In this document: piece after piece, positions 24,713 through 46,640 of the stretch | Layout of the letters: each line of letters opens with the position of its first letter | Position numbering within the stretch: position 1 is the first letter of the stretch | Assembly (NCBI RefSeq): GCF_963921235.1 | Contig: NC_086097.1 | Span: forward strand, 45,820,001-45,884,000 | From: Mobula hypostoma | Lineage: Eukaryota | Direction of reading: 5' to 3' | DNA length: 64,000 bases | Notes under the pieces: generated by a model | Told to the model about the DNA's origin: nothing | Database searches by the model: none | Seen by the model: only the letters and a program-made list of their open reading frames with translations | Made by a program: the position numbers and the translations under genes

Positions 24713-26729
24713 GTGAGTTTTTTTTTGTTCTTTAATTCCGGCTTTTACATGTGTTGAAATAGCCTAAAACTCATCATCATTATCAACTCTCTCTCTTCCC
24801 CCCCCCCCACTTCTGTGTTTAATAGGTTAAGTTGAAATAGGGATCAGTGAAGGAGAGGGTAGGTGCGCGGGGGAGGGGGAGATTGGTCGGGTTCCTTTCT
24901 AGGTCACCGTGCGGAGTTAGTAAAGATGATAGAAAAGTATAAAACAGCAATTATAATAAAGCGAGAATAGATAAATAACTCACCCCCCCCCCCCCCTACT
25001 GTTCGCCCCGAGAATAGCAGCAATAGAAGCGTGTGCTGCGGGCGTGCTTTGACTTAAATCATCATTTCCTACCCCACCCTGGATAAAACTGAAATACTGT
25101 ACCAATCTTACTCGTATGTTCAAAAGTTTATAATTTAAAAGATCTTCATGCGTAATATTTCGCTATTTAGGTTATGCAATTTATCAAACTCTCTCCTCGT
25201 TTCAGGTGCGGTTACTTTCACATTCGGTGTGAATGAACCTGTTAAATATATTTGGTCTTTTAAGAAATACGATTTTATTTTCAGATTTGGGGTTGTTATA
25301 TCGTTCAATATCGGGTCGACAATGCGATTTTATTTCTAAATAAACTAAAGTGTATGTTGAAATCTGCATCATTTAACATTGGGCGCATGTGCAAGAAATA
25401 AAGCAAGAAGCCACTGCAAACGATGCTAAAGGTGTTTGCTATTGAACGTGCAAGACCGATTGTAATTAAAAGTTTATAAATGGGTGATCTTAGTTCCTTT
25501 TAAACGCGGTGCGCTGTTTTGGCTTGTAGGCCTTGTGTGTTAAGTATTCAGTGGGAAGCCTACCGCAAAATCTTTCAATTCAACAAGAAGTTGTTTAATG
25601 CAAATATTTCTGGTAGCTTTTTTCATTGGCAAGCAAGTTTGCAGTTTTCTCATAGTGGAGAAATTGGTTTATTACTTAAGATATGAGTATTCCAGAAGTT
25701 TGTTTAGAAAGTTGCTTCTTGGTCAATTATATTTTTATGCAAGGAAAATGATTATAAACCATATGATCTTAATTTATTTTTGTCACTTTGTGATGTAGGG
25801 TTTTTTTTAGTCACAATATGCTTTTTTTGCTAAATTGGGTGTATTTAAAATCAGAATTTTTCAAAAATGGTTTGAAATTTTTTGGAGGTTTTTGTTATTT
25901 TGAGAGAGGTTGTAATGTTATAGTTGTTGAAAACACTTAATTTACAATAAGCATTGCATAGTAATTTTATTAAAAACTGAGAAATGCATTGCATTGGAAT
26001 GTTTCTGTATGCCATTGGTGCTGGCTGGTTGGTCAAGGGTTTTTAATTAAACTGCTGGAAGGTGGACTGAATGAACTTGGGGAGGATCTGTAACTGACTA
26101 GAAGCTGGTGAATGTGGGACTTTGAAGCTGTGGAGATGGTGAGTTACATGAGGGGATAAGGATTCGGAAAAAATGCAGTAGTTATTTGGGGATTTGAAAT
26201 TGGTGGCAATCAGTGAGGCTTAAGTCATGCTGAGTGGGCTTTTGTGTGAAGGTAGATTATAATTGGTAGCAGTTTGAATGAGAGGCAGAATGGGAAGATG
26301 GTGGGTATTCGATTAGTCCAATTTGGAAGAGAGAAAGGCACTAAGGGATTTAGTGACAAACATGCCAATATCAGAGATGCTACTGGATTAGAAATGGATA
26401 TTATTTGTGGCTAAAAATAAATGGATGCTGAAGGGGGGGGGGAGTCATTGCTTGTGTGTGGGAGGGGGAGTTGGGGGGGCTTTGTGGATCTGTCATTTTA
26501 ATTGTCACTCATTCTTTGGGGACTCTTCTGTTTTCGTGGATGTCTGTGAAGAATAAGAATTTTGGGATGTATATTGCATGCAATTCTCTGATATTAAATG
26601 GAACTATTGATGTTTTGAACACTGGTGTAATCTGATACAGTTGATGACAAGCATAGTTTATGGTTAGATTCTTGGAAGACTTGTGACATAAAAGGAACAT
26701 GAGAAGCCAGCATGCTTTTCAGTATTAGC

Positions 26730-26906
26730 AACCACAGAAAATGCTGGAGGAATTCAGCAGGTCAGGTAAATGAATAGAAGCATCCTGAAGAAGGGTCTCG
26801 GCCTGAAATGTTGACTATATTCATTTCCATAGATACTGCCTAGCCTGCTGAGTTCCTCTAGCATTTTGTGTATATTGCTTTGGATTCGTCTGCAGACTTC
26901 CTTGTG
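26730..26906 (+). mobile_element. Short fold-back Penelope terminal remnant with decayed hammerhead
   Basis: Inverted arm (aaaatgctggaggaattcagcagg versus cctgctgagttcctctagcatttt); ctgaagaagggtctcggcctgaaatgttgact at 26785; 14-bp TSD ttttca(g/a)tattagc at 26716-26729 and 26907-26920. Confidence 0.78.
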
Positions 26907-27835
26907 TTTTCAATATTAGCTTGATTTTCTTTCCTTTCCATATGCACTCCATATTACATGCTTTCTGTAAATGTCATACGTCATCGTGTGCTTCTGCACA
27001 AATCCTTATTGCTTATTTGTAGATCCTTTGTTAACGTGAGCATTTGTACAGATATTGCAGTTGTGGTTATTGAGAATTTGAGTAAAATCCACGTGTGCGC
27101 CAAATAGGGCTAAATATTCATCAGGTGTATATACCTGAAGTTCTGTGCACTTTGCTAATACTTTTCGGGTAGTAAAACAACCAACACATTTCATGGGTAT
27201 TTCTAAGCAGCATTTGACACCAAGCCACTCAAGGAGGTTATCAGGGAAATTAGTCAAAATTGGATTTTTAATGACATCGTAAATGAAATAAAGACCTGAT
27301 AATGGGCCAGGAAGCCGGTGGCACCAGGCACAAATGTTAAAACAATTACATTTAGATGAGTGATGAAGGGATATGAAAACAAATTCTAATTGCTTTTAGA
27401 GCTTGGCTGTTTTGGCTGTTTGATAGGACCCAATTGTAGTTTGAGATCTCAAAAATTTTTAAATGTCCAGCACTGATTGGGTTTGGATTGACTGTGATTA
27501 GGTCAGGTTCAGATTGTATTATAATTTTTCTATACTATAGTAGAGAAGTTGTTTGCTTTTGCTAAGTTCATTCATCACAACAGTTTGAACTTGGGACTGT
27601 TCTTGTTTGTATCTCTTGAATTGACTTTATTACTCGCATCCTTCTAAATATGCAATTTATAGTAATTTATAATAAATAGTATGTGCAACAGGACAGTGAA
27701 AATCACTTGTTACTGGTTGCATAAGTTGCTTGAAGAAAGTTAGGGAGCCAACTTGAATTTTGATACAAGTTAGTTGTATGTGATAGTTTCTAGCCTGTAA
27801 GAAGCAGGCCAAGCAGCATCTGTAGGAAGAGGCGC

Positions 27836-27871
27836 AGTCGACGTTTCAGGCCGAGACCCTTCGTCAGGACT
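27836..27871 (-). ncRNA. Minimal type I hammerhead ribozyme motif (Penelope terminus)
   Basis: Reverse complement reads agtc-CTGACGA-agg-gtctcgg-cct-GAAA-c-GTC-gact. Confidence 0.8.
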
Positions 27872-28162
27872 AACTGAAGGAAGAGTGAGTAAGGGATTTG
27901 AAAGCTGGAGGGGGAGGGGGAGATGCAAAATGATAGGAGAAGACAGGAGAGGGAGGGATAGAGCCGAGAGCTGGACAGGTGATAGGCAAAAGGGGATATG
28001 AGAGGATCATGGGACAGGAGGTCCGGGAAGAAAGACGGGGGGGGTGACCCAGAGGATGGGCAAGAGGTATATTCAGAGGGACAGAGGGAGAAAAAGGAGA
28101 GTGAGAGAAAGAATGTGTGCATAAAAATGAGTAACAGATGGGGTACGAGGGGGAGGTGGGGC

Positions 28163-29017
28163 CTAGCGGAAGTTAGAGAAGTCAATGTTCATGCCATCAG
28201 GTTGGAGGCTACCCAGACGGAATATAAGGTGTTGTTCCTCCAACCTGAGTGTGGCTTCATCTTTACAGTAGAGGAGGCCGTGGATAGACATGTCAGAATG
28301 GGAATGGGATGTGGAATTAAAATGTGTGGCCACTGGGAGATCCTGCTTTCTCTGGCGGACAGAGCGTAGATGTTCAGCAAAGCGGTCTCCCAGTCTGCGT
28401 CGGGTCTCACCAATATATAAAAGGCCACATCGGGAGCACCGGACGCAGTATATCACCCCAGTCGACTCACAGGTGAAGTGTTGCCTCACCTGGAAGGACT
28501 GTTTGGGGCCCTGAATGGTGGTAAGGGAGGAAGTGTAAGGGCATGTGTAGCACTTGTTCCGCTTACACGGATAAGTGCCAGGAGGGAGATCAGTGGGGAG
28601 GGATGGGGGGGACGAATGGACAAGGGAGTTGTGTAGGGAGCGATCCCTGTGGAATGCAGAGAGAGTGGGGGAGGGAAAGATGTGCTTAATGGTGGGATCC
28701 CGTTGGAGGTGGCGGAAGTTACGGAGAATAATATGTTGGACCCGGAGGCTGGTGGGGTGGTAGGTGAGGACCAGGGGAACCGTATTCCTAGTGGGGTGGT
28801 GGGAGGATGGAGTGAGAGCAGATGTACGTGAAATGGGGGAGATGCGTTTAAGAGCAGAGTTGATAGTGGAGGAAGGGAAGCCCCTTTCTTTAAAAAATGA
28901 AGACATCGCCTTCGTCCTAGAATGAAAAGCCTCATCCTGAGAGCAGATGTGGCGGAGACGGAGGAATTGTGAGAAGGGGATGGCGTTTTTGCAAGAGACA
29001 GGGTGAGAAGAGGAATA
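28163..29017 (-). CDS. Penelope ORF C-terminal part: RT thumb region, Cys-rich linker, GIY-YIG endonuclease (5'-truncated)
   Basis: ORF 28163-28906 extends upstream in frame (YSSSHPVSCKNAIPFSQFLRLRHICS). Motifs PLVLTYHP, CKRNKCYTC, VIYCVRCSRCGLLYIGETRRRLGDRFAEH, EQHLIFRLGSLQPDGMN. No stops; RT core absent. Confidence 0.88.
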   Translation of the reverse strand, partial: YSSSHPVSCKNAIPFSQFLRLRHICSQDEAFHSRTKAMSSFFKERGFPSSTINSALKRISPISRTSALTPSSHHPTRNTVPLVLTYHPTSLRVQHIILRNFRHLQRDPTIKHIFPSPTLSAFHRDRSLHNSLVHSSPPSLPTDLPPGTYPCKRNKCYTCPYTSSLTTIQGPKQSFQVRQHFTCESTGVIYCVRCSRCGLLYIGETRRRLGDRFAEHLRSVRQRKQDLPVATHFNSTSHSHSDMSIHGLLYCKDEATLRLEEQHLIFRLGSLQPDGMNIDFSNFR

Positions 29018-29399
29018 GACTCAGGTTGGAGGGACAACACCTTATATTCCGTCTGGGTAGCCTCCAACCTGATGGCATGAACATTGACTTCTCTAACTTC
29101 CGCTAGGCCCCACCTCCCCCTCGTACCCCATCTGTTACTCATTTTTATGCACACATTCTTTCTCTCACTCTCCTTTTTCTCCCTCTGTCCCTCTGAATAT
29201 ACCTCTTGCCCATCCTCTGGGTCATCCCTCCCCCGTCTTTCTTCCCGGACCTCCTGTCCCATGATCCTCTCGTATCCCCTTTTGCCTATCACCTGTCCAG
29301 CTCTCGGCTCTATCCCTCCCCCTCCTGTCTTCTCCTATCATTTTGCATCTCCCCCTCCCCCTCCAGCTTTCAAATCCCTTACTCACTCTTCCTTCAGTT

Positions 29400-29435
29400 A
29401 GTCCTGACGAAGGGTCTCGGCCTGAAACGTCGACT
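29400..29435 (+). ncRNA. Minimal type I hammerhead ribozyme motif (Penelope terminus)
   Basis: Stem I agtc/gact; core CTGACGA at 29404-29410; stem II agg/cct with 7-nt loop; GAAA at 29424-29427; palindromic ACGT helix III; GUC triplet with predicted cut after 29431. Confidence 0.82.
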
Positions 29436-30080
29436 GCGCCTCTTCCTACAGATGCTGCTTGGCCTGCTGCGTTCACCAGCAACTTTGATGTGTGTTGCTT
29501 GAATTTCCAGCATCTGCAGAATTCCTGTTGTTTTTCTAGCCTGTAAGAGTTGGCTAAGAATTATGAGCTATTTAGTAGAACCAAGAATAGAATTTATTTT
29601 ACATTTAAATCTTCCTATAGGAAATTTTTTTGATTCTGTTTGGATTGAATTTTCCGAATTCGTTGTAGTATGACTCTCACTGTAATACAGTGACCTGGAA
29701 TACATTTTGGGTTTTAGGACCTAATTATGGTACCCTCATTAGTTATTGTAGGCCTTTGTTTTGTACATCTGGTAAATAAATGTGCAGCCAAATTTTGGAA
29801 ATCTTCAGATTCAGTAGATGTTACAAGTTTGAAATATTGCTTGAAATATAACTGCAGATAGAATAAATACCATTTTTTCCCCACTGAAGCAAACCCCTTC
29901 ATGTAACAATTTCACCTGCAATTAATTAATTGGTTGTAATGTGGCATTGTTAATTAAAAATATCTAAATTTTGAAAGACCACATTTAAACCTCTAAATGC
30001 TCAGTGAAACGTTTCGGAATGTAGCAGAGTTAAAATTACAAATATACGTTTGAGAGGATATCTAAATGTTTTTCATAGTA

Positions 30081-30196
30081 CAGGTCGACCTTCACTAATC
30101 TGACTACCTGTAATCCAGTTCCTTTGATAGTCCAGCACTGATTATGCTTAACGTGATCCTTCTGTAATTCGGCATTTTCACTAATCCGGCACTCCC
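30081..30196. mobile_element. Truncated Tc1/pogo(Tigger)-like MITE
   Basis: TA followed by caggtcgaccttcactaatc; reverse complement of most of the complete copy at 38456-38608. Confidence 0.75.
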
Positions 30197-31209
30197 GATT
30201 ATCCCTGGAAGAATAATATGTATCAAGGGATCTAAATTATTGCCATTGTTTGTTTTGTTTGTGTTTTAAGCCATGTGAAATTATGATAGAGATTACCATA
30301 ATGTTGGTTTTATTGCAAGTCTAATTTCAGTAATATAGTTACATGCTTCTGAGGACATTTGGCTAATAGGAAGCAAAGGGCATGTAGATTAATGGAAGAC
30401 TCTAGAAATGACTGCAAGATTTCTCCTTAACTAGCTATAGAAGTGTTTTGTTTTAAGCTATCTATTTCAAGTAATTTAGAAAATTTAATTTGAGGTTTAT
30501 TTTTAAAGTGGAATCAGATTTTCAGACAACTTTTAAGTTCATCTAGTTTTTAAGTATTTACAGTCTGATGAAACGAGATCTTGAAAGGTAAATGACAAGT
30601 CATGTTGATGTATCTGTTCGGAGATAAGTTGAAATTAGAGTAATATCTAAAATAGTAATAGAAGTATATATGAAATACCTGCTCTTCTGTCGCCTGAGGC
30701 AAGTGTAGGTGCTGTGGAAAGAATGCATTAAGGAGAAATTGGGTGCGGCTCCAGGAATGAAGGGTAAATGGAAAAAGCTTTGTTTATCTTCCAGAGATGG
30801 AAAGAATTGGAGTGTAAAAGGGGCATGTTGTATATTATTTGTGTTCATTTCCTTTACTGCCAAAATATAAAGTTGGTTAAATACTAAAGTTTATAGTTTT
30901 TAAGTTGGGTCATAAAATAGGATAGAAATGTTTGCATGTGACTGGTTGAGTCTGGATTGAGAGAGCAATGCATTAAGTTGAGCAATTTAGTTTGTTCTTT
31001 AAGAAAAATGGAACTAAAAGAACATTGCTATTTGGGGAAAAAAGTAACATTAAAATGATCTTAAAATTTAGCTTCTGATTTGGATTTACAGAGATTAATT
31101 TGGGCAAAGGAGAATAGTCTATTTTGTTTGAGAATAAGGTATTTTGGCTTTCACTGTTAGGTAAGAAACGCAGCTTTCCAACTTGTAGTGGATCATAAAT
31201 TTCAGCATG

Positions 31210-33725
31210 CTAAGCAGTCGCATCTTCAAGACTTATCCAGGCGGCTATCCCCACATGCTTCAAATTAGCCACTGTCATCGCTGTACCAAGAAACTCTACA
31301 TCTTCAGAACTAAATGACTACCGCCCGATGGCACTGGCACCAATCATCATGAAGTGCTTTGAATGACTGATAATGGCTCATATCACAAACTTAATTCCTG
31401 CCTCATTAGACACTCACCAATATGCTTACAGACAGAACCGCTTTATGACAGATGCCGTAGCATCTGTCATGCACCTGGCCCTGACACACCTAGAAAACAA
31501 GGACACTTGTGTCAGAATGTTGTTTCTGGATTTCAATTCGGCATTCAGCACTCAGCACTATTGTCCCACAGATCTTGGTGAGCCTACTCCTCACTCTAAA
31601 TACACCACTTTGCAACTGGGTGTTTGCAGTGCCCATTGCTGTACACTTTGCTCACACATGACTGCGTGGCCAAACACATCAATCATCACATCTTCTGATG
31701 ACACAACCGTGGTGGGGCTTATCACCAATAATGATGAGATGGCGTACAGAGATAAGGTGGAAGAGTTGCAGGCCTGATTCATGGTAAATAATCTCAAGAT
31801 CACCACATCTATATACTACTAAAACTCTCATGCTCTGTCTGTCTGTCTGTTTGTGACCTCCAATTAATGCAAACGGTGCATTACAGCGTCACTTTTTTTT
31901 GGCTGAATCGAATTAAAATGCGCTAACTTACAGAATGCAGGCAAAGTTCAGGGTTATATATTCGTATAAAATTGCTCATTCGCAAAAATCAACAGTCTCC
32001 CTTTGACCTGAGAGCCGATCCGTCATCATGGAAATTGGGACGCGATAGCCGGATGCATGAGCACGGCCAGCCTCAGCAGTGACACCTACTGGAGCAAAAG
32101 GGCAAGGCAGCTGTATTTCGAGGGGTCACATTCTGCTAATCACCATCAGCATGTGCAGGATTGGGACAGATCTAACTGCCACCCATCAATAAGAGATAAT
32201 TAAATCTTATTGTAATGATGTACTTTGAGACACCCATAAAACCCTTTGCTGCAGTCAAAGGACAGCGGTGACTATATCACGTCCATTTAGAAGAGCGCCA
32301 ACCACATCATCAAGAATAATCAGCATCCTTTGGTGTAACTGCTTCGTATCTTCTATCCAGCATTAGGGTAAAAAAAAATGGTCAGCCTAATTATGCTGCG
32401 TGGAAAGGGAAGGGGGACATTATGGTCAAGAGGTGACGCCAAACGTCATTGGGAAGTGGCAAGGAGAGGGAGAGAACAAGAATCAGATGAGGCCAGGGCC
32501 GCACGACTCCAGGATCAAAGAGTCAGGACAAAAAAAGTGAGAGAAGAAGAGACAGAGAAGGAGAGGCATGCACGTCTCCAGGATCAGAGACAAACAACAA
32601 ACAGCAGAAGAGATGAAGAGATGGGGTTGAAAGGACTGCACGTCTCCAGATTGACAATGAGAGGCACAAGGGTGGCAGATAAACCAGAAATGATGCCATC
32701 AAAAGTGTCCTTTGTTAAATAAGGAGCAGCCATATTTGCTTTGCTATGCATCGTTCTTCTTTAATAAACTGAGGTTTTCTACTTCAGTTTCCAAGCAAAG
32801 CGATACCAATAGCATTCAGGAAAATTTAATGTTCATTCTGGTCACATCAGACTGCACTACCCTTCTCTGAAAGGATGCCCCAACGGGTCACCCCGTTGTC
32901 TAGTTTCATTCGAAGTTTCACTGTTGATGTTGCCTTGCAGACATTTTGTTACCCAGCAAGCTAACAAGCCATCGGCAAGCCACTCATCAACAGCATCCTC
33001 AACCCGAGCTACAAACCTCTATATCAACAAGACAAAAGGAGATGGTTATCAACATCAGGAGAACTTGCACCACTCACACCCCCTTCTTACATTGGTGCAC
33101 ATCACACCCAAGCTCTCATGGTCCCAGAACACATCCAACATAGTCCAGAATGTTCACTAGCTATTTGTTTGGGGAGGCTGCAGAGAGCTGGACTTCGCAC
33201 TTCCATACTCGCATAATTCTACAGACGCATAGCTGCATCCCTGCTTGGTACAGAAACTGCCCTACGTTGGGCAGGAAGGCTCGACAATGGGTAGTCAAAA
33301 CTGCCCGAAGCATCGAAACCATCTGCCATCAAACACTGAAAGGTTCTAGAAAAGAGCCAGTAATATGAAGGATCTCACCAACCCTGTTCCCACTCCCGTC
33401 AGGGAGGAGATTGAGTCACATCTACACCAGGACCATCAGACTCAAAAACAGTGTCCCCAAGTAGTAATGGTGATCTGTACTTCCACTCACTAAACCCACT
33501 GCTATTTTATTATTTCCTATCTGTCACCTTATCTACAGCCTAGTGAAACTTTATGGACTTGCAATCAATCTTTGTATATAAGCTATCTTTTGTATTTACA
33601 TTGTGTTTTTAATTATTATTGTTTTTTTTCTTTAGTTTTTTTTGTGCTGCATTGGGTCCAGGGTAACAACTATTTTGTTCTTCTTTACACTTGTGTGCAG
33701 GAAATGACATTAAACAATCTGAATC
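31210..33725 (+). mobile_element. Degenerate Rex1-like LINE interrupted by a Helitron
   Basis: ORF 31373-31777 (QYAYRQNR, MLFLDFNSAF, DDTTVVGLI). RT homology resumes at ~33015 (INKTK) and continues to a 3' tail near 33720. Confidence 0.78.
31808..32903 (+). mobile_element. Non-autonomous Helitron with both termini intact
   Basis: 5' A|TCTATATACTAC; 3' hairpin caacggg-tcac-cccgttg (32881-32898) then CTAG|T; A|T target and no TSD. Internal ORF 32378-32722 has repeats ARAARLQDQR / ERHARLQDQR. Confidence 0.9.
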
Positions 33726-35469
33726 AGTAGATTCTTGTTCCCATTTCTGATTGTACAGCATCAACTTTACCTGGTGGCAGTAATTGTTACCTCAAGTGAT
33801 TCAGTCATAAGTTCAAGCCCAAATCCATGAACCTTTACTGAGCTAATATAAGTTTATTACTGAGAAAGTTTTTTTTTCTATGGTGCAGTCATTCTCAGTT
33901 GAGATGTTAAGATGAAGCTTTGTTATTTAAATTTAAAAACCTCATTCAAAATGGTCTTCAGATGTTTAACCTCAATGTTTCAGAAGTAACTGTTCATTTA
34001 TCCCACTACTATAGAGTCTTAGCAAAAATTAGCTGTACATTGCACATTGATTAATTAGACATAAAGAGTAATTAAACTTGCTGCATAATCGTGTGAGAAT
34101 AAAAAATGGTGCTAGTTAAATCCAGGTTTATTTTTTGTTTTCGTAATGTTTTCTAGGAGCAGCAGCTTCTTCAGAGTCATTAACAAGTATAACAACGTGG
34201 CAAAGATGGTATTCAGTATTCTAAAGTTGAAGTTTTTTTTTAAAAACGAAGAATTTGATATTTTAAGTGTGTGGAATCTTGTAGGTGATTTTTTTTTTCT
34301 GCCACTGCAGGTAGGAATTATTTTTTTACTTTGTTCACTTAGCTACACATGGTAAAATGTGGTTGTCCATTATGGCAGCAATTTAGTTCTTTAGGATTTG
34401 AATACTTGCCTCTGGGTGCAGTGGTAATCCTCCACATTCCAAAGACATACTGGTTAGGGTTAATAAGTTGTAGGCATGCATTGTTGTTGCTGGAAGGTAT
34501 AGAACTTGCAGGCTGTCCCCAGAATATCCTTGGAAAGTGTGTTATTTGCATCAACAACCAACATTTCACTATATGTTTCAATGTACAAATAAAGCTGATA
34601 TTTTCTACTAGTTTAAGAGATCAACATATGATTGTGTGTACCATAGTTAACCAAGATCTGAAACTGGCTGTTGCAAAAATCAAAGTGGTGGTGGGAGGAA
34701 TATAGTTTTTTTTAAGTCCTGAAAATACCAAGTCATTCAGATTTGCAGAGATCATATGTAAATGCTCAAGGAGATTATTTAACTGTCATTGATTCAGTAT
34801 CAGCGGCATCAATATTAGATCACGGCTACTTGAGCTGCTACAATTTTGTTAAAACCAATGTAGTAATGATTTCATCTAATACTTCACACTGCATTAAACC
34901 CTTCTGATTGGCTTAAATAGTCGCTCATTTTATGGGTTGTGTAACTAACATATCACTGTAACAATTTTTGAATCCTTCATGGTCATATTATTTTCAGTTA
35001 AAAGTCCTTCTGTAGTATCAGGAGTATTCCCATCAGTGTGCATCTTTGCAGTCGCTTTTGTCTCTATTGCCCAATCTGACCTTTGCCCAAATGCTCTGGG
35101 CTATGACCGATGCAGACTGATTTCTAATTCAATTCAATCTTACATTCTTGCTAGCCTTGTCCCACTTTCTGATCTCTTAGCTTTATTCCTATCCTCAACA
35201 CTGTTTGATCTAATAACCCTATGCCTGCCTTTTTACTTTACTACTTTGCCAATTTAACAGTATCTAATAAAGATCCTACTGTCAGAATTTTGACCGCTTC
35301 CGATCTGTATTGTGAACTGTGGCACAAAAGATTTAGGGAGAATTTGCTTCTAAAACTCTTTAAGAGGAACTTTTTCTTTCAGGAAGAAATTTTCAGTTTT
35401 ATAATCGCACCTTTGGTCTTGCTGTTGTAGTCTTTAATAATGTGGATTGAAGCATCAGTGTGCAATGCA

Positions 35470-38350
35470 CTGGACAGAATAAGGTTGATGATCTTGTAGC
35501 ACATTTAGAGATTGTCAGGTATGACGTTGGGCATCACTGAGACGTAGTTGAAAGAAGATGATTGTTGGGAGCTTTATCCAAGGACATACTTGTACCGAAA
35601 GGACAGGCAGGTAGGCAGATGGGGTGGGGTGGCTCCGTTTGTTTAAAAAAACATGAAATCAAATCCTTAGAACAGTGACTTAGGATTGGAAAATGTAGAA
35701 TTATTATGGGTACTGTTAAGAAACTGTAAGGGTAAAAATTAGTGGGAAATTAGAGGATTGAGGAGCTTTTTAAAAACCAACAGAAGGCATCTAAAAAGCC
35801 ATAAAGAGAGAAAAGATGGAATATGAAGGTAAGCTAGCCAAAAATATCAGAAGGGGTACCAAAAGTTTTTTCAGATATATAAAGAGTAAGAGAGGCCATT
35901 GTGAATATTAGACCACTAGAAAATGATGCTGGAGAGGTAGTAATGGGGGACAAAGAAATGGTAGATGAACTTAAGTATTTTGTGTTAGTCTTCACTGTGG
36001 AAGACACCAGCAGTATGCTGGAAGTTTGAATGTGCCAGACGAATAGACAATAGGTGCAGGAGTAGGCCATTTGGCTCTTCGAGCGAGCACCGACATTCAC
36101 TATGATCATGGCTGATCATCCACAATCAGTACCCTGTTCCTGCCTTCTCCCCATATCCCTTCACTCTGCTAACTTTAAGAGCTCTATCTAACTCTTTCGT
36201 GAAAGAATCCAGAGAATTGGCCTCCACTGCCTTCTTAGGCAGAGCATTCCACAGATCCACAACTCTCTGTGTGAAAAAGTTTTTCCTCAACTCTGTTCTA
36301 AATGGTCTACCCCTTATTCTTAAACTGTGGCCTCTGATTCTGGACTCCCCCAACATTGGGAATATGTTTCCTGCCTCTAGCGTGTCCAATCCCATAATAA
36401 TTTTGTATGTTTCAATCAGATCCCCTCTCATCCTTCTGAAGTCTAGTGTATACAAGCCCAGTCGCTCCAACCTTTCAACATATGACATTCCCAATTAACC
36501 CACTGAACCTACTCTGCACTCCCTCCATAGCAAGAATGTCTTTCCTCAAATTTGGAGACCAAAACTGCACACAATACTCCAGGTGGGGTCTCACCAGGGC
36601 CTTGTACAACTGCAGAAGGACCTCTTTGCTCCTATACTCAACTCCCCTTGTTATGAAGGCCAACATGCCATTAGCTTTCTTCACTGTCTGCTGTACCTGT
36701 ATGCTTGTTTTCAGTGACTGATGAACAAGGACACCCAGATCTCGTTGTACTTCCCCTTTTCTGCTCCCTGACTAAGTGAGTGTAATTGCTATTAATAATG
36801 AGAAGGTGCTTGGGAAGCTGAAAGGTCTGAAGGTAGATAAGTCACCTGGACCAGATAGACTATACTCCTGGATTCTGGAAGAGGTAACTGAAGAGATTGT
36901 GGAGGCACTTGTAATGATCTTTTAAGAATCGCTAGATTCTGGAATGGTTTCAGAGGACCGGAAAATTGCAAATGTCACTCCACTCTTTGGGAAAGGAGGA
37001 GAAGAAAGGAAATTATGGGCCAATTAGCCTGAGTTTAGTGGTTGGGAACCTGATGGGAGTCCATTATTAAGTATGAGGTTTCAAGGTACTTGGAGGCACA
37101 TGATAGAGCAGACCAAAGTCAGTGTAGTTTCCGTAAGGGGAAATCTTGCCTGACAAATCTGTTGGAATTCTTTGAGGAAATAACAGGCAGGATAGACAAA
37201 GAGTCAGTGGATGTTGGTTACTTGGATTTTCAAAAGTCTCTTGAGGTGCGGCACGTGCAGCTGCATAACAAGATAAGGGCCCATGGTATTCCAGGAAAGA
37301 TATGAGCATGAATAGATTGCTGATTGGCAGGAGGCAAAGACTTGGAATAAAGGGAGCCTATTCTGGTTGACTACTGGTGACAAGTGGTGTTCCGCAGGGG
37401 TCAGTGCTGGGACCACTACTTTTCATGTTAAATGTTGATGAATTGGATGATGGAATTGATGTCTTTGTAACCAAGTTTGCAGACAATACAAAGATAGCTG
37501 GAGGGGCAGGTAGTGTTGAAGATGCAGGGAGCCTGCAAAAGGACTTGGACAGATTGGAAAAATAGACAAAGTAGCAGTTGGAAAACAGTGTCGGGAAGTG
37601 TACCGTCATGCACTTTGGTAGAAGGAGTAAAGGCATAGACTATCTAAATGGGGAAAAAATTTCAAAAATCAGAGGCGCAAAGGGACTTGGGATTCCTTGT
37701 ATAGGATTCCATAAAGTTTAATCTGTAGGTTGAGTTGGTGGTAAAGAAGGTAAGTACAATATTAACATTCATTTTGAGAGGACTAGAATATGAGCAAGGA
37801 TGTGATGCTGAGGCTTTATAATGCATTGGTCAGATTGCACTTGAGAGTATTGTAAGCAGTTTTGGGCCCCTTATACAAGGAAAGATGTGGCATTGAAGAG
37901 GGTACAGAGGAGATTCACAGGCATTATTTTGGGTATGAAAGGGTTAATGTATGAGGAGCGTTTGGCTCTTGGCCTATATTTGCTGGAGTTATCTCATTGA
38001 AGCCTGTCAAACATTGAAAGGCCTAGATAGTGGATGTGGGGAGTATGTTTCTTATAGTGGGTGACCAGAGGGTAAATCCTCAGAATAGAGGGACGTCTAT
38101 TTAGAATAGAGATGAGAATGAATTTCTTTAGATAGAAGGTGGTGAATCTGTGGAATTCGTTGCCATGGACGGCTGTGTAGGCCAGGTCATTGAATATATT
38201 TTTAGCAGAGGTTGATATATTCTTGTTTAGTTAAAGGGTACAGGGAAAAGGCAGGAGAATGGGCTTGAGGGATAATAAATCAGCCATGATGGAATGAATG
38301 CAGAGCATACTTGATGGGCCAAATGGCCTATTCTGCTTCTGTATCTTACG
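35470..38350 (+). mobile_element. Degenerate CR1 LINE ORF2 (EN-RT) hosting a nested opposite-strand CR1
   Basis: KGKSCLTNLLEFFEE (ORF 37090), SGVPQGSVLGPLLF and KFADNTK (ORF 37377), CR1 3' UTR near 38250-38350. Confidence 0.85.
36042..36762 (-). mobile_element. Younger CR1 LINE 3' fragment
   Basis: ORFs 36475-36684 and 36126-36494 are the CR1 ORF2 C-terminus; tail aatagacaatag at 36042. Confidence 0.88.
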
Positions 38351-38455
38351 GTATTGAAGCTGATCTTAATTATATGACAATATAATTGTTATTGTGAATT
38401 ATACGACAATAGTTCCTTCATTAATACTGTTCAAGGTTTTTCTTAAAAGCTAATA

Positions 38456-38608
38456 CAAGTCGACCTTCACTAATCCGGCACCATTGGGACCTGAGGAGTG
38501 CTGGATTAGTGAAAATACCAATTACAGAAGGATCACAATAAGCATAATCAGTGCCAGATTATCGAAGGAACCAGATTACAGGTAGTCGGATTAGTGAAGG
38601 TTGACCTG
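38456..38608. mobile_element. Complete 153-bp Tc1/pogo(Tigger)-like MITE
   Basis: ~22-bp TIRs caagtcgaccttcactaatccg and cggattagtgaaggttgacctg; TA on both sides (38454-38455, 38609-38610). Confidence 0.87.
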
Positions 38609-38744
38609 TATTTCACAATATGACCTAATATTTCCTTTGGTTATCTATCTTCAGTATTTCTTTTTTGTAAGACATGGAGGGTAAGTAACATTTTAATTAT
38701 GCATGGATTAATATATATTTACGCAAAGCACTGTCGAACAATAG

Positions 38745-39655
38745 AAAACATAAACACAACATCTGCAGATGCTGTAAACCTTGAGAAACACTCGGAATCC
38801 AGGAGGAACTTAGCAAATCAGGTAGCATCCATGGAGGGGAATAAACAGTTGATGCTTCAGGCTCAGACCCTTCATCATGACTGGAAAGGAATGGGGCAGA
38901 AGCCTGAATAAGAAGGTAGGGGAGGGGAAGAAGTGCGAGCTGCTAGGTGATGGGTGGAAACAGGTGAAAGGGAAGGTGGGGGATGGGGATGAAGTAAGCT
39001 GGGAGGGAATAAGTGGAAGAGGTGAAAGTCTGAAGAAGAAAGAATCTGATAGGTGAGGGCAATGGACCGTGGAATGGAAAGAGGAAGGGAACCAGAAGGT
39101 GTAAGAGGGTAGCCAGAATGGGAATGGAAAATGGGGGGGGGGGGTGGGGGAGAGAAATTATTGGAAGTTAGGTCATTGATGTTCATGCCATCAGGTTGGA
39201 GGCTATCCAGATGGTGTGAGGTGTTGCGCCTTCAACCTGAGCTTGGCCTTGTCAGGCCATGGCCTGACATGTCAGAATGAGAATGAAATGTTAATTTGAA
39301 ACTGGTAGCCACCGGGTGATGCTGCCTTTTGTGGTTGACATAGTGAAGATGCTCAACGTAGCTGCCCCCAGTTTGCATCAGGTCTGACTTATTTCAAGGA
39401 GGCTGTACTGGCAGCACCAGATACAATAAATAACCCTGGCAGACTTGCAAGTGAAGTGTTGCCTCACTTGGAAGAACTGTTTGGAGATTTTAATGGTGGT
39501 GAGAGAGGAGGTGTAGGGGCAGGTGTAGAACTTGTCACACTTGCAGGATGTGCCAGGAGGAAGATCAATGGGGGGGGCTAAGTGGATAAGGGATCACATA
39601 GAGAGCGATCCCTATGGAAAGCAGAAGTGGGGGGGGGGCGGGTAGAGGGAAAGAT
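38745..39655 (-). mobile_element. Old Penelope-like element (GIY-YIG remnant and terminus)
   Basis: Diverged homology to 27803-28680 (gatgttcatgccatcaggttggaggct; gtgaagtgttgcctcac); decayed hammerhead at ~38846-38882. Confidence 0.82.
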
Positions 39656-41384
39656 GGAGTCAGAAAATAGAATTCTTAACTAAAGTTTACTGCAACCAAA
39701 TCCTATTCTCGGCCTACCCTTAACAAAAAGGGTGTGTCTTTTTCCATGTACATTAGAGCGATGTCTTCTACTTTGTTTCTCATAGTTAAATTGTCGTATT
39801 ATTCTCAGTTTGTGCATCTTAGAGACTTCAGTGGTTGTATTATCTTGTCTGGAGGTAATGTAAATAGAAAGAGTTGAGAGATTTGGGGTATCACATGGGC
39901 CTAAGCTATTCACAACAGTAGCTATTTATTGTTGTGATAGGCCAATTTATTTGCTGAGGGTACAAAAGTAGGTGGGATTGTGACAATGGTTTAAAAAAAA
40001 GCTTTGAGTGAGGACATGACAAATGAAAAATGCAGTGGAAAAGGGTGAGGTCAACTACTTAACCACCCAAAACAGAAGTGCAAATTAATTTTTAAATTGT
40101 GATCAGGAAATAATGTTCAAAGGGACTTGGGTAATCTTTAAGGTGAGTCTGAAAGCCAACATTCAGGTCCAGAAAACATTCGGGAAGATAAATGACATGT
40201 TGACTGCAATTATAAATGGATTTGAGTACAGAACTAAAGAGATCTTAGTGAAACTGCAAATGAAGTATAGCTTTTGGTTTCCTTGCCCTTGTATAAACAA
40301 AAGATTATTTGCCCTAGGTAGTGTGTATTGAAAATTGGGCCCTGGGATGGTGAATTTGTTCTGAGTACATTAGGCATATTTTCTCCAGCATTCAGAAGAA
40401 ATAGAGGTGATCTCAGGAGGATTTCCTCCTGGATGAAGAACATAGAGCTAGAGGTCAGAGTCTCAGATAAAAGAATAGGTTATTTAAATGAGAGATCTTT
40501 TCACACAGTCTTGTGAATCTTTGGAAATCTAATTTAAGGGCTGTGGAGTCTTAGTAATTGAGTTCATTCAAAACATGAATGACAGAATGACCTGGAAAGT
40601 ACGAATGACCTGCTATTTCTTGTGGTTGTGTGGATTAAAGCACCATTAAAAGACTCCATAAATTTCTTGCAACATAATCTGTTATATTTAGGGTATTCTT
40701 CGGCAAAACTTTATTAGGATCTCCAATTTCTGTAGGCAAGTGATAGGTTTAGTAGAGGTGAAAGCAAAATGAGGCAGCGGATGGAAATAGCGAAGAAATC
40801 ATTCTTACCAGCTTTGATATATCTGGACAACACTGCATGTGTGAAAATATTGAGATTGTGATCAGTTTAATGGTATAATTATAGTTTTACCATTCTAAAG
40901 CTCTAAAATCTAGGTCAGGACCTGGAATTGCAATTCTGAAGAAGGAACCAGAGTAAATGCCTATGGTTGTATGATTTCAAAAGTAGCCGAGATGAAAACA
41001 TGAGAGACAAGGAATTAGAAATGTATGCTTAAAGACTGAGATGAGGTAGATGGTATGTGACATGATTAGTTTACAGCACAAACACCAACATAGATTATGT
41101 ATGATGAGGTCTATTAGTTCAGATGACTTTGAGCATAATGGTGAAAGTCAGTGGTGAAAGGAGTGATGCGCCTTTAACTTCCCACTGTTGCCTCTGTATA
41201 ATTTGGTCTCTACAGTTCGGGCCATTCTACGACACTCCAGAATGTATCAGAATTGTGACCCAAGATTGAAGACAGCAGTAGCATTGAACTGTTTAGAAAT
41301 GCCTATCAAGCAAATGTTATTTCTTTGGCAGAGGTGTAGACCAGATGTTAACAGTATCTTTTTGGTTTATCTATATACTGTGAC

Positions 41385-41751
41385 CCCTCAAAATCCCTCC
41401 CTCACCCTTCCCCCATCCCTGTTTCACTCTGCCCTCTTCCCCAGCTGCCTATCACTTCCCTCATGGTTCCGCCTCCTTCTACTACCCATTGTGCTTTCCT
41501 CATTCCTCCTTCACCTTTCCTGCCTATCCCCTCTCTGCCTTCCCTCCCCCACCTCTTTATCTTTCCCCTTACTGGTTTTTCACCTGGCAGCTACCAGCCT
41601 TTTCCTTCCCACCCTCCCCCCACCTCCTTTATAGGGCCTCTGCCTCCTCCCTCTTCAGTCTGATGAGGGTTCCGGCCTGAAACGTTGACTGATCATTTCC
41701 ACGGATGCTGCCCGACCTGCTGAGTTCCTCCAGCGTGTTGTGAGTGTTGCT
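41385..41751 (+). mobile_element. Penelope-like 3' terminus with hammerhead variant
   Basis: Pyrimidine-rich UTR, then cagtctgatgagggttccggcctgaaacgttgactg (41656-41691) and gatgctgcccgacctgctgagttcctccagc. Confidence 0.78.
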
Positions 41752-42596
41752 CTGCCACTCTTGTACCTCTCATTGTCATTCTGGAGACGTGCAGCCCTTT
41801 CATCCCCCGTCTCTTCATCTCTTCTGCTGTTTGTTGTTTGTCTCTGATCCTGGAGACGTGCATGCCTCTCCTCCTCTGTCTCTTCTCTCATCTTTTTTTG
41901 TCTTGACTCTCTGATCCTGGAGTTGTGCGGCCCTGGCCTCCTCCGATTCTTGTTCTCTCCCTCTCCTTGCCGCTTCCCGATTTGGCATCATCTCTTGACC
42001 ATAATGACCCCCTTCCCTTTCCACGCTGCATAATTCGGCAGACCATTTTTTTTTACCCTAATGCTGGATAGAAGATACAAAGCAGTAACACCAAAGGATG
42101 CTGATTATTCTTGATGATGTGGTTGGCGCTCTCCTAAATGGATGTGACAGTCACCACTGTCTTTTGACTGCAGAAAAGGGTTTTATGGGTGTCTCGAAGT
42201 ATGTCATTACAGTAAGATTTAATTATCTCATTGATGGGTGGCAGTTAGATCTGTCCCAATCCTGTACATGCTGATGGTGATTAGCAGAATGTGACCCCTT
42301 GAAATAGAGCTGCCTTGCCCTTTTGCTCCAGTAGGTGTCACTGCTGAGGCTGGTCGTGCGCATGCATCCGGCTATCGCGTCCCGATTTCCATGATGACGG
42401 ATCGGCTGTTGGGTGAAAGCCAGCCTGTTGATTTTTGGTGAATGAACAATTTTATACGAATATATAACTCTGAACTTTGCCTGCATTCTGCAAGTTAGCG
42501 CATTTGAATTTGACTTAGCCAAAACAAGTGCCGCTGTAATGCACCGTTTGCGCTAATTGGAGGTCACAGAGTATGAGAGTTTTAGTAGTATATAGA
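41752..42596 (-). mobile_element. Non-autonomous Helitron, 5' TC terminus intact, 3' end missing
   Basis: Reverse complement of 31808-~32680; ends gtagtatataga at 42596; ORFs 41815-42024 and 41655-41891 carry the same RLQDQR repeats. Confidence 0.88.
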
Positions 42597-44440
42597 TTGT
42601 AATGACATACTTTGAGACACCCATAAAACCCTTGCTGCAGTCAAAGGACAGCAGTGACTATATCACGTCCATTTAGGAGAGCGCCAACCACATTCTCAAG
42701 AATAATCAGCATCTTGGAGGCTTTGGTGTTACTGCTTCCTATCTTCTATCAAGGATTAGGGTAAGAATATATGGATAGCCTAATTATGCTGAGTGGAAAG
42801 AGAAGGGGGACATTATGGTCAAGAGATGACGCCAAACATCGTCGGGAAGCGGCGAGGAGAGGGAGAGAACAACAATCAGATGAGGCCAGGGCCGCACGAC
42901 TCAAGGATCAAAGAGTCAGGACAAAAAAGATGAGACAGAGGAGGACAGGCATGCATGTCTCCAAAATGACAACAATAGGCACAGATGGAGGAGAGAACAA
43001 GAATCTGATCAGGCCAGGGCCACACGACTCCCAAGATCAGAGAGAAAGAACAAATGGTAAAAGGGATGAAGAGACAAAGGATGAAAGGGCTGCGTGTCTC
43101 CAGAATGACAAAAACAGGCAGAGGAGGAGAGAGGAAGAGCCAGAGGTGCTTGGTGGTAGGACAGCGCAATCACGATTCAAAATACCCCTCAAAGTCAATG
43201 AGGATGCCCTTTGTAACATAGATAAAAACACCAATACTGCAAATTTACTCCAAAATGCAAAGCTCATTGTCTGGGATGAGTGCCCCATGATTAGGAGGGA
43301 GAGCTTTGAAGCCGTGGACCACACTCTTCGTGACGTATGCGGCAAGAATGAGGCCTTCGGGGGTATTTTAACCATTTGCTGTGGCGATTTCCGTCTGCTT
43401 CTAGCAGTTGTGAAATGCAGAAATGATGCTGATGTGGAGAATTCATTAAAAAATCCTACTTATGGAGAAGCTTCATCAAGTTTCAATTGAAGAGAAACGT
43501 GATTGAGTGAGGGAGAAGGAGGATATTCTCAGTTCTTATTGGATGTTGGAGAAGACAAGATTGAGAAAAATGAAAACAATGAAATCAAATTACCTGAAGA
43601 TATGATTCTGCCAGCAACAACTATGGAAGAATGCATTGATTTCATTTACCCGACATTCTACAATCCTGCAGAACTCTTCTCGAGGAATTCTATCATGGTT
43701 CCTCTTAATGAAAATGAAGTATGATGCGAAAAATAAACTTCACATGCATTAGACACTTCCTTGGAATCATGAAAGAATACTGCTCCTTCAATGCCGTAAG
43801 TGAAGGAGCGAACACCACTTATTTTCCTACAGAATTCCTTGATTTGGTCAAACTCTCTGGATTGCCACCGCAGGAACTGGAATTGAAGAGGGGATCTCCC
43901 ATCATTTCAATGAGGAACTTGGATCCACCAAGGCTTTGCAATGGAACGTGAATGATGGTGGAAGAACTGCACAACAATCTCATCGTAGCAAAGATAAACA
44001 TTGGTACATTCAAAAAATAATTTTGTCATTATCCCAAGAATTACTCTCAATTTATCAGAAGGGGAAAATGTCCCTCCTCAGCGGAGCCAGTTCCCGATAC
44101 AGTCATGCTTTGTTACGACTATACATTCGGCTCAAGGCCAAACCATGGAGAATGTTAATTTATTTGGAGAAATCAGTATTCCCGCATGGTCAGCTGTATG
44201 TGGCTTTAAGCCGGGGAAAAAGAAATGAAAATGTTAGAGTATTCCTGAAGGGTGGCAGATCAACCAGAAATGTGGTCATAAAAAGTGTCCTTCGTTAAAT
44301 GAGGGGGAGCATTATTTGTCTTGCTAGGTGTCTTTCTTCTTTAATACAGTGAGTTCTTCTTTAATTTCCAAAGCACATCACATCACACTGTACTCCCTTT
44401 CTCTGAAAAGGTGCCCCCAACGGGTCACCCGGTTGTCTAG
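42597..44440 (+). mobile_element. Helitron deletion derivative with decayed PIF1-family helicase and intact 3' end
   Basis: GGRTAQSRFKIPL, LIVWDECPM, FGG...GDFR, FPTEFL, GLPPQELELK, MRNLDPPRLCNGT, FPIQ...TTIHSAQGQT and HGQLYVALSR across frameshifted ORFs 42771-44298. 3' hairpin then CTAG|T at 44437-44441. Confidence 0.92.
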
Positions 44441-46199
44441 TGTTTGTTAAAAATATTTTTCAAGTCAGAGTTTCTGTGTTAATTCTACAAAGAGTGAAGC
44501 TGGATTTATAATAGTGGAGTGGATGTTGTAATTACTTGTGACTGCTAATTACTAATTTTACAAATCTGTCATTGGTGAGTTCTTGATTTAAAAATATTTA
44601 CAGCTTAAATAATTTGTCCATGATATTTTTTTAAACTAGTATACCACTCACAAAAGCTATATTTTTCTAGTTATTTTACTGTTCTAAAATGATATGCAAA
44701 GTTTCTTCTTCCTTTCTCAATGGCAATCACCACATGTACTTTCATGTACATTTACTAAAAATGTATGTTAAAATATTAATAGTTTTTAATGCTGATCTTG
44801 CTTTTTGCTGGCATCCAAAGGTAAATTCACTTATCTGCCATATAAAGAATGAAGTATGCTATCCATGTGTCCTGTGTCTAATTTGGCTTGATGGCATAAG
44901 ACATAGGAGCAGAATTGGGCCATTTGGCTCACCCAGTCTGCTCCGCCATTTCATCATTACATTCTTCAAAGATGCCGAATTATTTTTCAAACCTTTACCA
45001 TGACTAAAATGTATCTTGCCTATTTAATATGTAAAGTCTTTATTTTATAATGTGAAAGTTAGTGCTTAATTTAAAACTTGGGTTTATGCAAAGTAAAAAT
45101 GCACAGAATTTGAGACAGTCTTGTGTCAAAGTTTTATAATTGGTTAAAGGTAGGCAATGTCAGTAGGATTAAGAGAAATGGAATTTGATAGGGGCATGAC
45201 AAGTAGTATTGTCCCGGAGCCTGCATGAATAGGATGAAGGAATGCCCAATGTGTGCATAGAATTTGCAGATAACAATAGTTAAAATAGTGAGAATTGTGA
45301 AATTGGAAATGGGAAGTTAAAAAGAGACAGATTTGATGAGCAAAGCAGTTAGAGAATTCAGTGTGGGAAGGGTGTCATTCATTTAGAACCCAAAAATCTT
45401 TCTGAATGAGAAGAGATTTGAAACCATGACAAAATAGAGATTTTGGTATCTCAAGACACATTTAAAATTTGGTTTCCAGTTACACAGACTTGAGAAATAT
45501 TAAAAGAAAGGTTCTAGGATGTTGCTCTTTACCTCGAGAGCAGAAATGCTCGAGGGAGGAAGTTGTGTTTGTGCAGATCTTTGGACACGCCCCATCTAGA
45601 ATACTGCGCTCAGTTTTAAGTACTGAACCTCTGGAAGTATGTTGACAAAATGTCTGAGTGTTCTACAAATTCATCAGGAGCTTACAACCTCAACAGAAAC
45701 ACTTTTAACCATTGATAGAAATCTCCCTTTAATATATTCTGTGCAATCTAATTGACATGTTCAAAAGGATAAATAGGTTTTGTTCATGTATGTAGTTTGC
45801 ACATAGTTGGCAAGGTCTGCATTTAACTCCAAATTGTCCTTGAAGATTTAGCATATCATTCATTGTTCCATCCCTTGGGTATGTTTGACCTTGTCAATTC
45901 TGTATGGCTTGATAGAGCAAGTATCCAGCATTTTTACATCCCTGCATAAAATATTTGAATGTATGTGATCCGTATTTGGAGTGCGTGTGATCGATAAGTT
46001 GTGCCCAATGACAGCATACAAAGATAATCCATTGGTCTTGGTGAGGAAACTTGCAGGGTCCCAAAGATATCAAATGATCTAAGGTGCTGGAACATTACGA
46101 ACTACAATTTGACCCCAAGTTGCAGTAGAAATTGTAAGAGCAAGGAAGAATTTGTTTTAAGGAATATTTTAAAAGGAAAAAGGTGAGGATGGAGCAAGT

Positions 46200-46640
46200 A
46201 CTGGAGTCAAACTGCAGATGCTGGATCTTGGAGCAAAAAAAAAACACAATTTTATTTGAGCAACTTAGCAGGATGAGTTGGAGTGGGGTGGTAAAATATT
46301 GATGAATCAGGTTGAAACCCTGCATCAGGACTGAGGGTGGAGAGGGAAGATGATTGGTATTAAGAAGAAAGGGAAATTGGGGAGATGGACCAGTAGGTAA
46401 CATATGGAGGGAGAAAGGTGAAGGATGATGGGCAGAAGGAGTAGATGGAGGAGGGGTGTTGAGCGATGGGCAGGTGAACAAGTGGGGGATAAAAAAGGAG
46501 CAACAAACAATCTGATGGAAGAACTCAACAGATTGAGCAGTAACTTAAGGCAGGAATGGAACCCCAGAGATGCCTCTTGACCAGCTGACTTCCTCCAGCA
46601 GATTGTTGATCTAGATTCCTGCATCTGCAGTTTGTCTCTG
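46200..46640. mobile_element. Old fold-back Penelope terminal remnant
   Basis: caaactgcagatgctgga at ~46208 versus tcctgcatctgcagtttg at ~46617; decayed hammerhead ccctgcatcaggactg on the minus strand. Confidence 0.6.

What the first reader, a model, noticed from the sequence alone, without database searches (positions are those of the whole stretch)
29400..29435. Minimal, probably dimer-dependent hammerhead ribozyme in the sense strand of RCOR1 intron 2
Seen: a 36-nt motif with all hammerhead core residues: stem I (agtc/gact), CUGACGA, a 3-bp stem II, GAAA and a GUC cleavage triplet. Helix III is reduced to the loopless palindrome ACGU. Established: Penelope-like elements carry minimal type I hammerheads, and those with a palindromic helix III are thought to fold as dimers. 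Inference: this copy is transcribed within the RCOR1 pre-mRNA and could cut it after 29431 only if paired with a second sense copy. The ORF track misses it, reading it as the spurious peptide SPDEGSRPETST.
Basis: partly seen in the sequence, partly recalled or inferred. Interest (0 to 1): 0.75.

Follow-up and report, generated by a model that had tools for sequence, protein, structure and literature searches.

The report
Penelope hammerhead locked by own mirror
This is an intact copy of the tiny self-cutting RNA motif already known from Penelope-type jumping genes, one of more than 50,000 in this genome, left by a recent insertion in an RCOR1 intron, and it is predicted to be locked by the insertion's own mirror-image arm, so it likely does not cut the host RNA.

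Summary
The motif is real: 29400-29435 has every hammerhead core base and a loopless ACGU helix III, on the sense strand of RCOR1 intron 2 (24713-56105). It is the pseudo-LTR ribozyme of a young, 5'-truncated, head-to-head Penelope-like insertion (27803-29532, 16-bp target duplication, Neptune-type linker, GIY-YIG). A related organism's contig shows the empty site. The genome holds 50,694 exact matches to the motif, 36,060 identical over 34 nt, including copies flanking intact 1043-codon ORFs. Stem II is better read as 4 bp after an unpaired A, with G10.1-U11.1 instead of the usual G-C. Across copies the core decays like non-core positions and no compensatory changes were seen. Published minimal hammerheads are inactive alone and weak as dimers. 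Verdict: new member of a known kind, most likely inert for RCOR1. The scan has reported this family many times on other DNA.

The parts
29400..29435 (+). Minimal type I hammerhead motif (stem I 29400-03/29432-35; core 29404-10; unpaired A29411; stem II 29412-15/29420-23 with G10.1-U11.1; GAAA 29424-27; helix III ACGU 29427-30; predicted cut after 29431)
   Evidence: sequence; folds; pair counts
29019..29532 (+). Right arm of the insertion: end of the endonuclease ORF, pyrimidine-rich 3' region, hammerhead and tail (pseudo-LTR), 96-98% identical to pLTRs beside intact ORFs elsewhere
29469..29532 (+). 64-nt tail present on the right arm only
   Evidence: left arm stops at the equivalent of 29468
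27803..29018 (-). Left arm: 5'-truncated element on the minus strand (end of RT region, C-x4-C-x2-C linker, GIY-YIG endonuclease, 3' region, hammerhead)
   Evidence: ORF 28163-29020; Pfam GIY-YIG E=1.4e-4, 22.5 bits against a cut-off of 22.6
27803..28250 (-). Part of the left arm complementary to 29019-29468 (98.7%); predicted to form a 450-bp duplex in the RCOR1 pre-mRNA
27836..27871 (-). Identical hammerhead copy on the minus strand; in the RCOR1 transcript it is the exact antisense of 29400-29435
27787..27802 (+). Target-site duplication, left copy (16 bp)
   Evidence: one copy only in a related organism's contig
29533..29548 (+). Target-site duplication, right copy (16 bp)
24713..56105 (+). 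Host intron: RCOR1 intron 2
   Evidence: exon ends and reading frame; identity of later exons

Best explanation
The motif is the pseudo-LTR hammerhead of a recently inserted, 5'-truncated Penelope-like retrotransposon, and in the RCOR1 pre-mRNA it is predicted to be paired to the insertion's own inverted arm, so it likely does not fold or cut. Shown: the insertion's ends, the 16-bp duplication, the two head-to-head arms, the endonuclease fragment, the copy number, full-length sister elements with two sense hammerheads 3.5 kb apart around one RT-endonuclease frame, and the empty site in a relative. Inferred from published work: in the full-length element the two copies would dimerise through ACGU (possibly helped by the element's protein) to process the element's RNA. 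Predicted by folding: during RCOR1 transcription the left arm appears first; the right arm would zip onto it from 29019 onward and all 36 ribozyme bases would sit in a 450-bp duplex until the intron is spliced out and degraded. Not shown: any cleavage, or its absence, in cells.
For: 16-bp TSD and junctions. Arms 98.7% complementary. Whole-region fold pairs 447 of 450 arm positions and all 36 ribozyme bases; 36-nt duplex -76.3 kcal/mol against -9.5 for an active-like dimer and -28.3 for the best inactive dimer. 50,694 exact matches, 0 in the reversed control; 36,060 identical over 34 nt. In 3 of 8 long-ORF loci fetched, two identical sense hammerheads flank the ORF; 2 of the 8 hold an unbroken 1043-codon frame with RT and GIY-YIG hits. 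One 636-nt contig of another organism runs from the left flank to the right flank with a single copy of the duplication. Copies decay neutrally: non-CpG core against non-core mismatches 64/416 vs 137/884 in 52 old copies and 8/472 vs 31/1003 in 59 young copies, p=1.0 and 0.16. Published: single minimal motifs showed no cleavage and dimers only low cleavage (PMC4209133); an anole Penelope hammerhead cut only when the element's protein was added and no RNA-seq reads ended at its site (PMC11167929).
Against: The fold is an equilibrium prediction; RNA-binding proteins, editing or fast splicing could keep the arms apart. The motif is undamaged and identical to that of intact elements, and other sense copies with an intact core exist in the same transcript. 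G5 mutants are rarer genome-wide (203) than mutants of stem II G10.2 (550), which could reflect selection in source elements, though sequence context differs. No raw RNA reads were available to look for ends at 29431/29432.
Confidence: 0.87

Rival explanations
1. One reading: the copy pairs with a second sense copy (in the same pre-mRNA or in trans from any of thousands of transcribed copies), forms a dimeric hammerhead and cuts RCOR1 intron 2 after 29431, lowering or tuning RCOR1 output.
For: Intact core and palindromic ACGU; a nested dimer structure can be drawn with only standard pairs; 6 sense copies with an intact core in the RCOR1 unit; the best partner (61507-61542) has G10.1-C11.1 and gives -12.1 kcal/mol.
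Against: The antisense arm binds far more strongly (-76.3). The nearest sense copy (26781-26816) has a weak stem I and no palindrome (-2.4). The best partner is 32 kb downstream in intron 3 and has its own antisense arm. This copy has G-U at 10.1-11.1. Dimers of such motifs cleave weakly (PMC4209133). Empty site in a relative.
Confidence: 0.05
2. The ribozyme is silent, but the insertion affects RCOR1 as a long double-stranded RNA (A-to-I editing, nuclear retention, slowed splicing) or through AG-ended pyrimidine tracts beside the motif acting as cryptic acceptors. This is compatible with the best explanation.
For: 450-bp near-perfect duplex predicted; pyrimidine tracts ending in AG at 29397, 29401 and 29451.
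Against: Deep intronic position, 3 kb from exon 2 and 26 kb from exon 3; the same duplex would hide those acceptors; no expression data were obtained.
Confidence: 0.07
3. The motif is a chance look-alike with no ribozyme history.
For: No Rfam hit; the isolated 36-mer folds no better than shuffles (z=-0.37) and mispairs its core; no compensatory changes among copies.
Against: 44 descriptor hits against 0-1 in controls; position in the pLTR, unpaired base after A9 and palindromic 15.2-16.2 all match the published class (PMC4209133); subfamily-level changes inside the motif fall at N7, the stem II loop and 11.1 (C/U), not at core bases.
Confidence: 0.01

Closest known systems
Minimal hammerheads (min-HHR) in pLTRs of metazoan Penelope-like elements, incl. 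fish Xena, Poseidon, Neptune (Cervera and De la Pena 2014, PMC4209133; parts 1-2 of 4 of the text read)
   Same: Type I, conserved core only, short helix I, unpaired base between A9 and 10.1, palindromic 15.2-16.2, in the pLTR, mostly dispersed as truncated copies, some as pairs on opposite strands.
   Different: G10.1-U11.1 instead of G-C in this copy and in most young copies (36,060 against 5,457); helix II 4 bp rather than the 7-8 bp given for Schistosoma; very uniform and about ten times more numerous than the 4,000-9,000 reported for coelacanth and Xenopus.
Endonuclease-bearing Penelope-like elements, Neptune-type (Craig et al. 2021, PMC8557442; Arkhipova et al. 2013, PMC3846280; passages read)
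   Same: Single ORF with RT and C-terminal GIY-YIG, CX2-5CxxC linker, 5' truncation, head-to-head inverted arm, one-sided tail, target-site duplication.
   Different: Tail 64 nt (30-40 described); duplication 16 bp (8-10 in the rotifer examples). No RT tree was built.
Poseidon element PAc of the green anole (Frangieh et al. 2024, PMC11167929; parts 1-2 of 4 read)
   Same: pLTR hammerhead, tail at the 3' end of inserted copies.
   Different: Different clade; there the ORF starts inside the ribozyme, here the first in-frame ATG of the intact frame lies beyond the tail. Protein-assisted cleavage was shown there and is untested here.
Domesticated intronic self-cleaving ribozymes: RECK-type hammerheads (review PMC6155905, passages) and the CPEB3 ribozyme (PMC10919898, search listing only)
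   Same: A ribozyme motif in the sense strand of a host intron.
   Different: Those are conserved across species and complete as monomers; this one is a young repeat copy, absent at the same site in a relative, without helix III and paired to an antisense arm.
Non-LTR retrozymes (Li et al. 2026, 10.64898/2026.07.22.740005; part 1 of 5 and passages read)
   Same: Type I hammerhead derived from Penelope pLTRs; reported in one cartilaginous fish.
   Different: Those are direct tandem repeats; this locus is an inverted pair that keeps part of the ORF.

Membership tests
Minimal type I hammerhead of metazoan PLEs | Core CUGANGA ... GAAA ... UH | tested here: met
   CUGACGA 29404-10, GAAA 29424-27, UC 29430-31
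Minimal type I hammerhead of metazoan PLEs | Helix I closing the motif (4-5 bp) and a helix II | tested here: met
   AGUC/GACU (plus a possible U-G at 29399-29436); GGGU/GCCU
Minimal type I hammerhead of metazoan PLEs | Helix III absent or minimal, with palindromic 15.2-16.2 | tested here: met
   ACGU; Watson-Crick 15.2/16.2 in 38 of 44 descriptor hits
Minimal type I hammerhead of metazoan PLEs | Unpaired base between A9 and 10.1 | tested here: met
   A29411; A in 58 of 59 young and 49 of 52 old copies
Minimal type I hammerhead of metazoan PLEs | G10.1-C11.1 pair (a reported tendency, not part of the published descriptor) | tested here: not met
   This copy has G-U; G-C in 5,457 sister copies and in 31 of 52 old copies. 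Filed as a G-U variant on the descriptor features above.
Minimal type I hammerhead of metazoan PLEs | Located in the pLTR of a PLE | tested here: met
   Same sequence on both sides of intact RT-GIY-YIG frames in L191 and L192
Minimal type I hammerhead of metazoan PLEs | Compensatory changes in stems among families | tested here: inconclusive
   One family only in the sample; one-sided compatible changes (G-C/G-U at 10.1-11.1, C-G/U-G at the fifth pair of stem I); double changes in at most 2 of 111 copies per pair, as CpG decay would give
Minimal type I hammerhead of metazoan PLEs | Self-cleavage as a dimer | not testable with these tools
   Needs an in vitro assay
EN+ Penelope-like element, Neptune-type | One ORF with RT and C-terminal GIY-YIG endonuclease | tested here: met
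   1043-codon frames, RVT_1 E about 3e-5 and GIY-YIG E 4e-4 to 1e-3, both under Pfam's cut-offs; the window keeps the last 285 codons
EN+ Penelope-like element, Neptune-type | CX2-5CxxC linker between RT and EN (Neptune and Nematis) | tested here: met
   CKRNKCYTC in the window ORF; definition in PMC8557442
EN+ Penelope-like element, Neptune-type | pLTRs, inverted 5'-truncated arm, one-sided tail, target duplication | tested here: met
EN+ Penelope-like element, Neptune-type | RT phylogeny placing it in Neptune rather than Nematis | not tested
   No reference RT set was at hand
Domesticated intronic ribozyme (RECK/CPEB3-like) | Conserved at the orthologous site across species | tested here: not met
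   Empty site in one related organism's contig; one organism only
Non-LTR retrozyme | At least two direct tandem units, each with a hammerhead | tested here: not met
   The two copies at this locus are inverted

The most novel reading that the evidence does not exclude
This Penelope family reached over 50,000 intact hammerheads because it is self-muffling in host introns: the expanding subfamily carries a weakened G10.1-U11.1 ribozyme, and head-to-head insertion puts the ribozyme on both arms so that, whichever strand the host transcribes, the sense copy is locked by its antisense. Unlocked sense copies would then be able to cut nascent host RNAs when the element's protein or a partner RNA is abundant, and would be purged from introns. 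Seen here: 36,060 G-U against 5,457 G-C exact copies; an antisense copy lies within 1.5 kb of 6 of 26 and within 2 kb of 8 of 19 intact copies. The purge itself was not tested.
Probability: 0.08. Interest if true: 0.6.

Novelty: new member of a known kind. Interest (0 to 1): 0.12.

Why it matters
As a single locus it matters little: it is one of tens of thousands of copies of a described motif, and the local structure argues against any cut in RCOR1 RNA. Its use is as material: a very uniform, recently active family with intact ORFs and natural G-C/G-U variants is a good system to test what Penelope hammerheads do, which is still open. If unlocked intronic copies did cut host transcripts, that would be a genome-wide cost of a transposon not yet described; nothing here shows it.

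Tried and rejected
Rfam scan of 27000-32000 at E<=10: five weak unrelated hits, no hammerhead. Monomer folding: no better than shuffles, core mispaired. Sequencing runs: no RNA holder listed; 13 runs, all contigs, RNA status a guess, so read ends at 29431/29432, strand and editing could not be examined; contigs of two runs cover unique intron flank without differences, which is no evidence on expression. Core-versus-flank test at subfamily-diagnostic sites: 0 of 11 core against 8 of 62 flank positions, p=0.6, too little power. Genome-wide single-mutant counts (G5 203, G10.2 550) are not context-matched and were not taken as proof of selection. The fold-back count returned 0 because of a pattern error and was redone; there 26 of the 30 first loci passed the stricter pattern, and the two members of a pair count separately. 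In one search, 155 of 177 tail hits were kept, 59 as young spanning copies, 52 of the other 96 were kept as old copies (tail identity under 90%, non-core positions at least 60% alike), a filter that favours non-core identity; the high upstream divergence of old copies is confounded by 5' truncation. Lunse et al. 2016 on dimer cleavage was not held; it is cited only through a review. A search for the effect of G10.1-C11.1 changes gave no rate for G-U, so 'weakened' is recalled, not sourced. A search joining Penelope, hammerhead and shark/ray terms listed no paper on this family (12 of 20 listed). An intronic sense/antisense bias test was not possible without gene annotation. Supplements were not read; those of PMC4209133 and of the 2026 preprint may already list a shark or ray family like this one.

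Full report
Observation. Window 29400-29435 reads AGTC CTGACGA A GGGT CTCG GCCT GAAA CGTC GACT. All hammerhead core bases are present, helix III is the loopless palindrome ACGU and the predicted cut is after C29431. Exons 1-3 of an RCOR gene lie on the + strand at 24399-24540, 24656-24712 and 56106-56186 with GT-AG ends and one open frame; later exons lie beyond the window and two of them match REST corepressor 1 best, with RCOR3 a little lower. The motif is therefore sense in intron 2. It is not chance: a minimal descriptor finds 44 motifs in 1.364 Mb of this genome, all of one family, against 0 reversed and 0-1 per shuffle. Rfam does not report it. Stem II is better read as four pairs after an unpaired A, the layout described for this class; the first pair is then G10.1-U11.1, not the usual G-C.

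What it belongs to. The motif lies in a 1730-bp insertion, 27803-29532, flanked by a perfect 16-bp duplication. The insertion has two arms joined head to head at 29018/29019. The left arm, on the minus strand, keeps the last 285 codons of an ORF with a C-x4-C-x2-C linker and a GIY-YIG endonuclease, then the 3' region with an identical hammerhead at 27871-27836. The right arm repeats the last 450 bases in the other direction at 98.7% identity and adds a 64-nt tail. Inverted 5'-truncated arms, a one-sided tail and a target duplication are the described form of Penelope-like insertions, and the linker marks the Neptune or Nematis clades. A search with 100 residues of the ORF gave 64,043 candidates, 150 scored, at 95-100% identity. 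Of 8 long-frame loci fetched, 2 hold an unbroken 1043-codon frame with RT and GIY-YIG hits, and 3 have two sense hammerheads, identical to the focal one, about 3.5 kb apart around the frame. That is the arrangement in which a dimer could form in cis. That the host is a shark or ray is a recalled resemblance, not tested.

Copy number and age. The genome holds 50,694 exact matches to a 31-nt pattern of the motif, equal on both strands, none in the reversed control; 36,060 are identical to the focal copy over 34 nt and 5,457 carry G10.1-C11.1. In run X13, from another organism, a 636-nt contig at depth 5.5 maps with bases 1-135 to 27668-27802 and, taken as the same record from its equal length and depth, with bases 120-636 to 29533-30041: the two flanks meet over one copy of the duplication. 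The site is empty in an organism whose flanks differ by about 4-5%, so the insertion is young and not a conserved host feature (one organism only).

Selection on the motif. Among 59 young copies spanning the motif, chosen by flank and tail only, frequent variants fall at N7 and 11.1 inside the motif and at 8 of 62 flank positions, at none of 11 core positions (p=0.6). Non-CpG core bases are not significantly better kept than non-core ribozyme bases in young (8/472 vs 31/1003, p=0.16) or old copies (64/416 vs 137/884, p=1.0), and no compensatory pairs stand out. The 36-nt block as a whole is kept between old and young subfamilies while the spacer behind it varies more (205/676). This fits selection in the replicating element and neutral decay after insertion, but the sample cannot prove the first part. 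G5 mutants (203) are rarer than G10.2 mutants (550); contexts differ, so this is only a hint.

How it most likely behaves in RCOR1 RNA. The left arm is transcribed first and is the antisense of the right arm. Folding 27750-29600 pairs 447 of 450 right-arm positions with it, including all 36 ribozyme bases; that 36-bp duplex alone is -76.3 kcal/mol, against -6.0 for the monomer hammerhead fold, -9.5 for an active-like dimer and -28.3 for the best, inactive dimer. A second sense copy is available in principle: the RCOR1 unit holds 6 sense and 3 antisense copies with an intact core. But the nearest is decayed, and the best partner (61507-61542) is 32 kb away and has its own antisense arm, as does 97676; two (41659, 83287) have none within 4 kb. 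Published behaviour points the same way: a Schistosoma minimal motif did not cut alone and cut weakly as dimer or trimer; an anole Penelope hammerhead cut only with the element's protein, was not needed for insertion in vitro and left no read ends in RNA-seq; a review gives very low rates even for dimers. These are predictions and analogies; no cleavage data for this family were obtained, and no raw RNA reads were available.

Comparison and novelty. It works like, and on the descriptor features is a member of, the minimal hammerheads of metazoan Penelope-like elements (PMC4209133), as a G-U variant. It is not a tandem retrozyme and not a domesticated intronic ribozyme of the RECK type. A literature search listed no paper on this particular family (12 of 20 listed), but one cartilaginous fish is in the 2026 retrozyme survey, and supplements were not seen. 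Earlier notes of this scan describe the same family many times in this and other genomes; they were read after the analysis above was in place and agree with it. The one bolder reading left open is family-wide: fold-back insertion and the G-U pair may muffle intronic copies (antisense copy within 1.5 kb for 6 of 26 and within 2 kb for 8 of 19 intact copies), with unlocked copies selected against. That needs annotation and was not tested.

Verdict. Observation confirmed; interpretation partly supported; new member of a known kind; interest 0.12.

Noticed in passing
window 60899-61641: A second head-to-head insertion of the same family in RCOR1 intron 3; its sense hammerhead (61507-61542) has the canonical G10.1-C11.1 pair but also has an antisense arm 0.5 kb upstream.
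   Followed up: partly
L047 (G000:C1:46047318-46048224, minus strand): Three pseudo-LTR units in direct tandem about 440 bp apart, two with intact hammerheads: a retrozyme-like array where a cis dimer could form.
   Followed up: no
window 41655-41690 and L032 (extended position 83287): Two sense hammerhead copies with an intact core in RCOR1 introns that have no antisense arm within 4 kb; both have damaged stems.
   Followed up: partly
window 47133-47296: A 164-bp fold-back made of two pseudo-LTR tails that lacks the hammerhead.
   Followed up: no
window 29385-29401 and 29440-29451: Pyrimidine tracts ending in AG just before and just after the motif resemble 3' splice sites; in Drosophila Penelope an intron ends at helix I (PMC4209133). 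The downstream AG is kept in old subfamilies.
   Followed up: no
window 29398-29400 equivalent, in other copies: Several contigs and genomic copies begin at the 5' edge of the motif rather than at the cut site (loose ends; rows).
   Followed up: no
window 26781-26910 and 4351-4473: Older or truncated pseudo-LTR remnants of the same family.
   Followed up: partly
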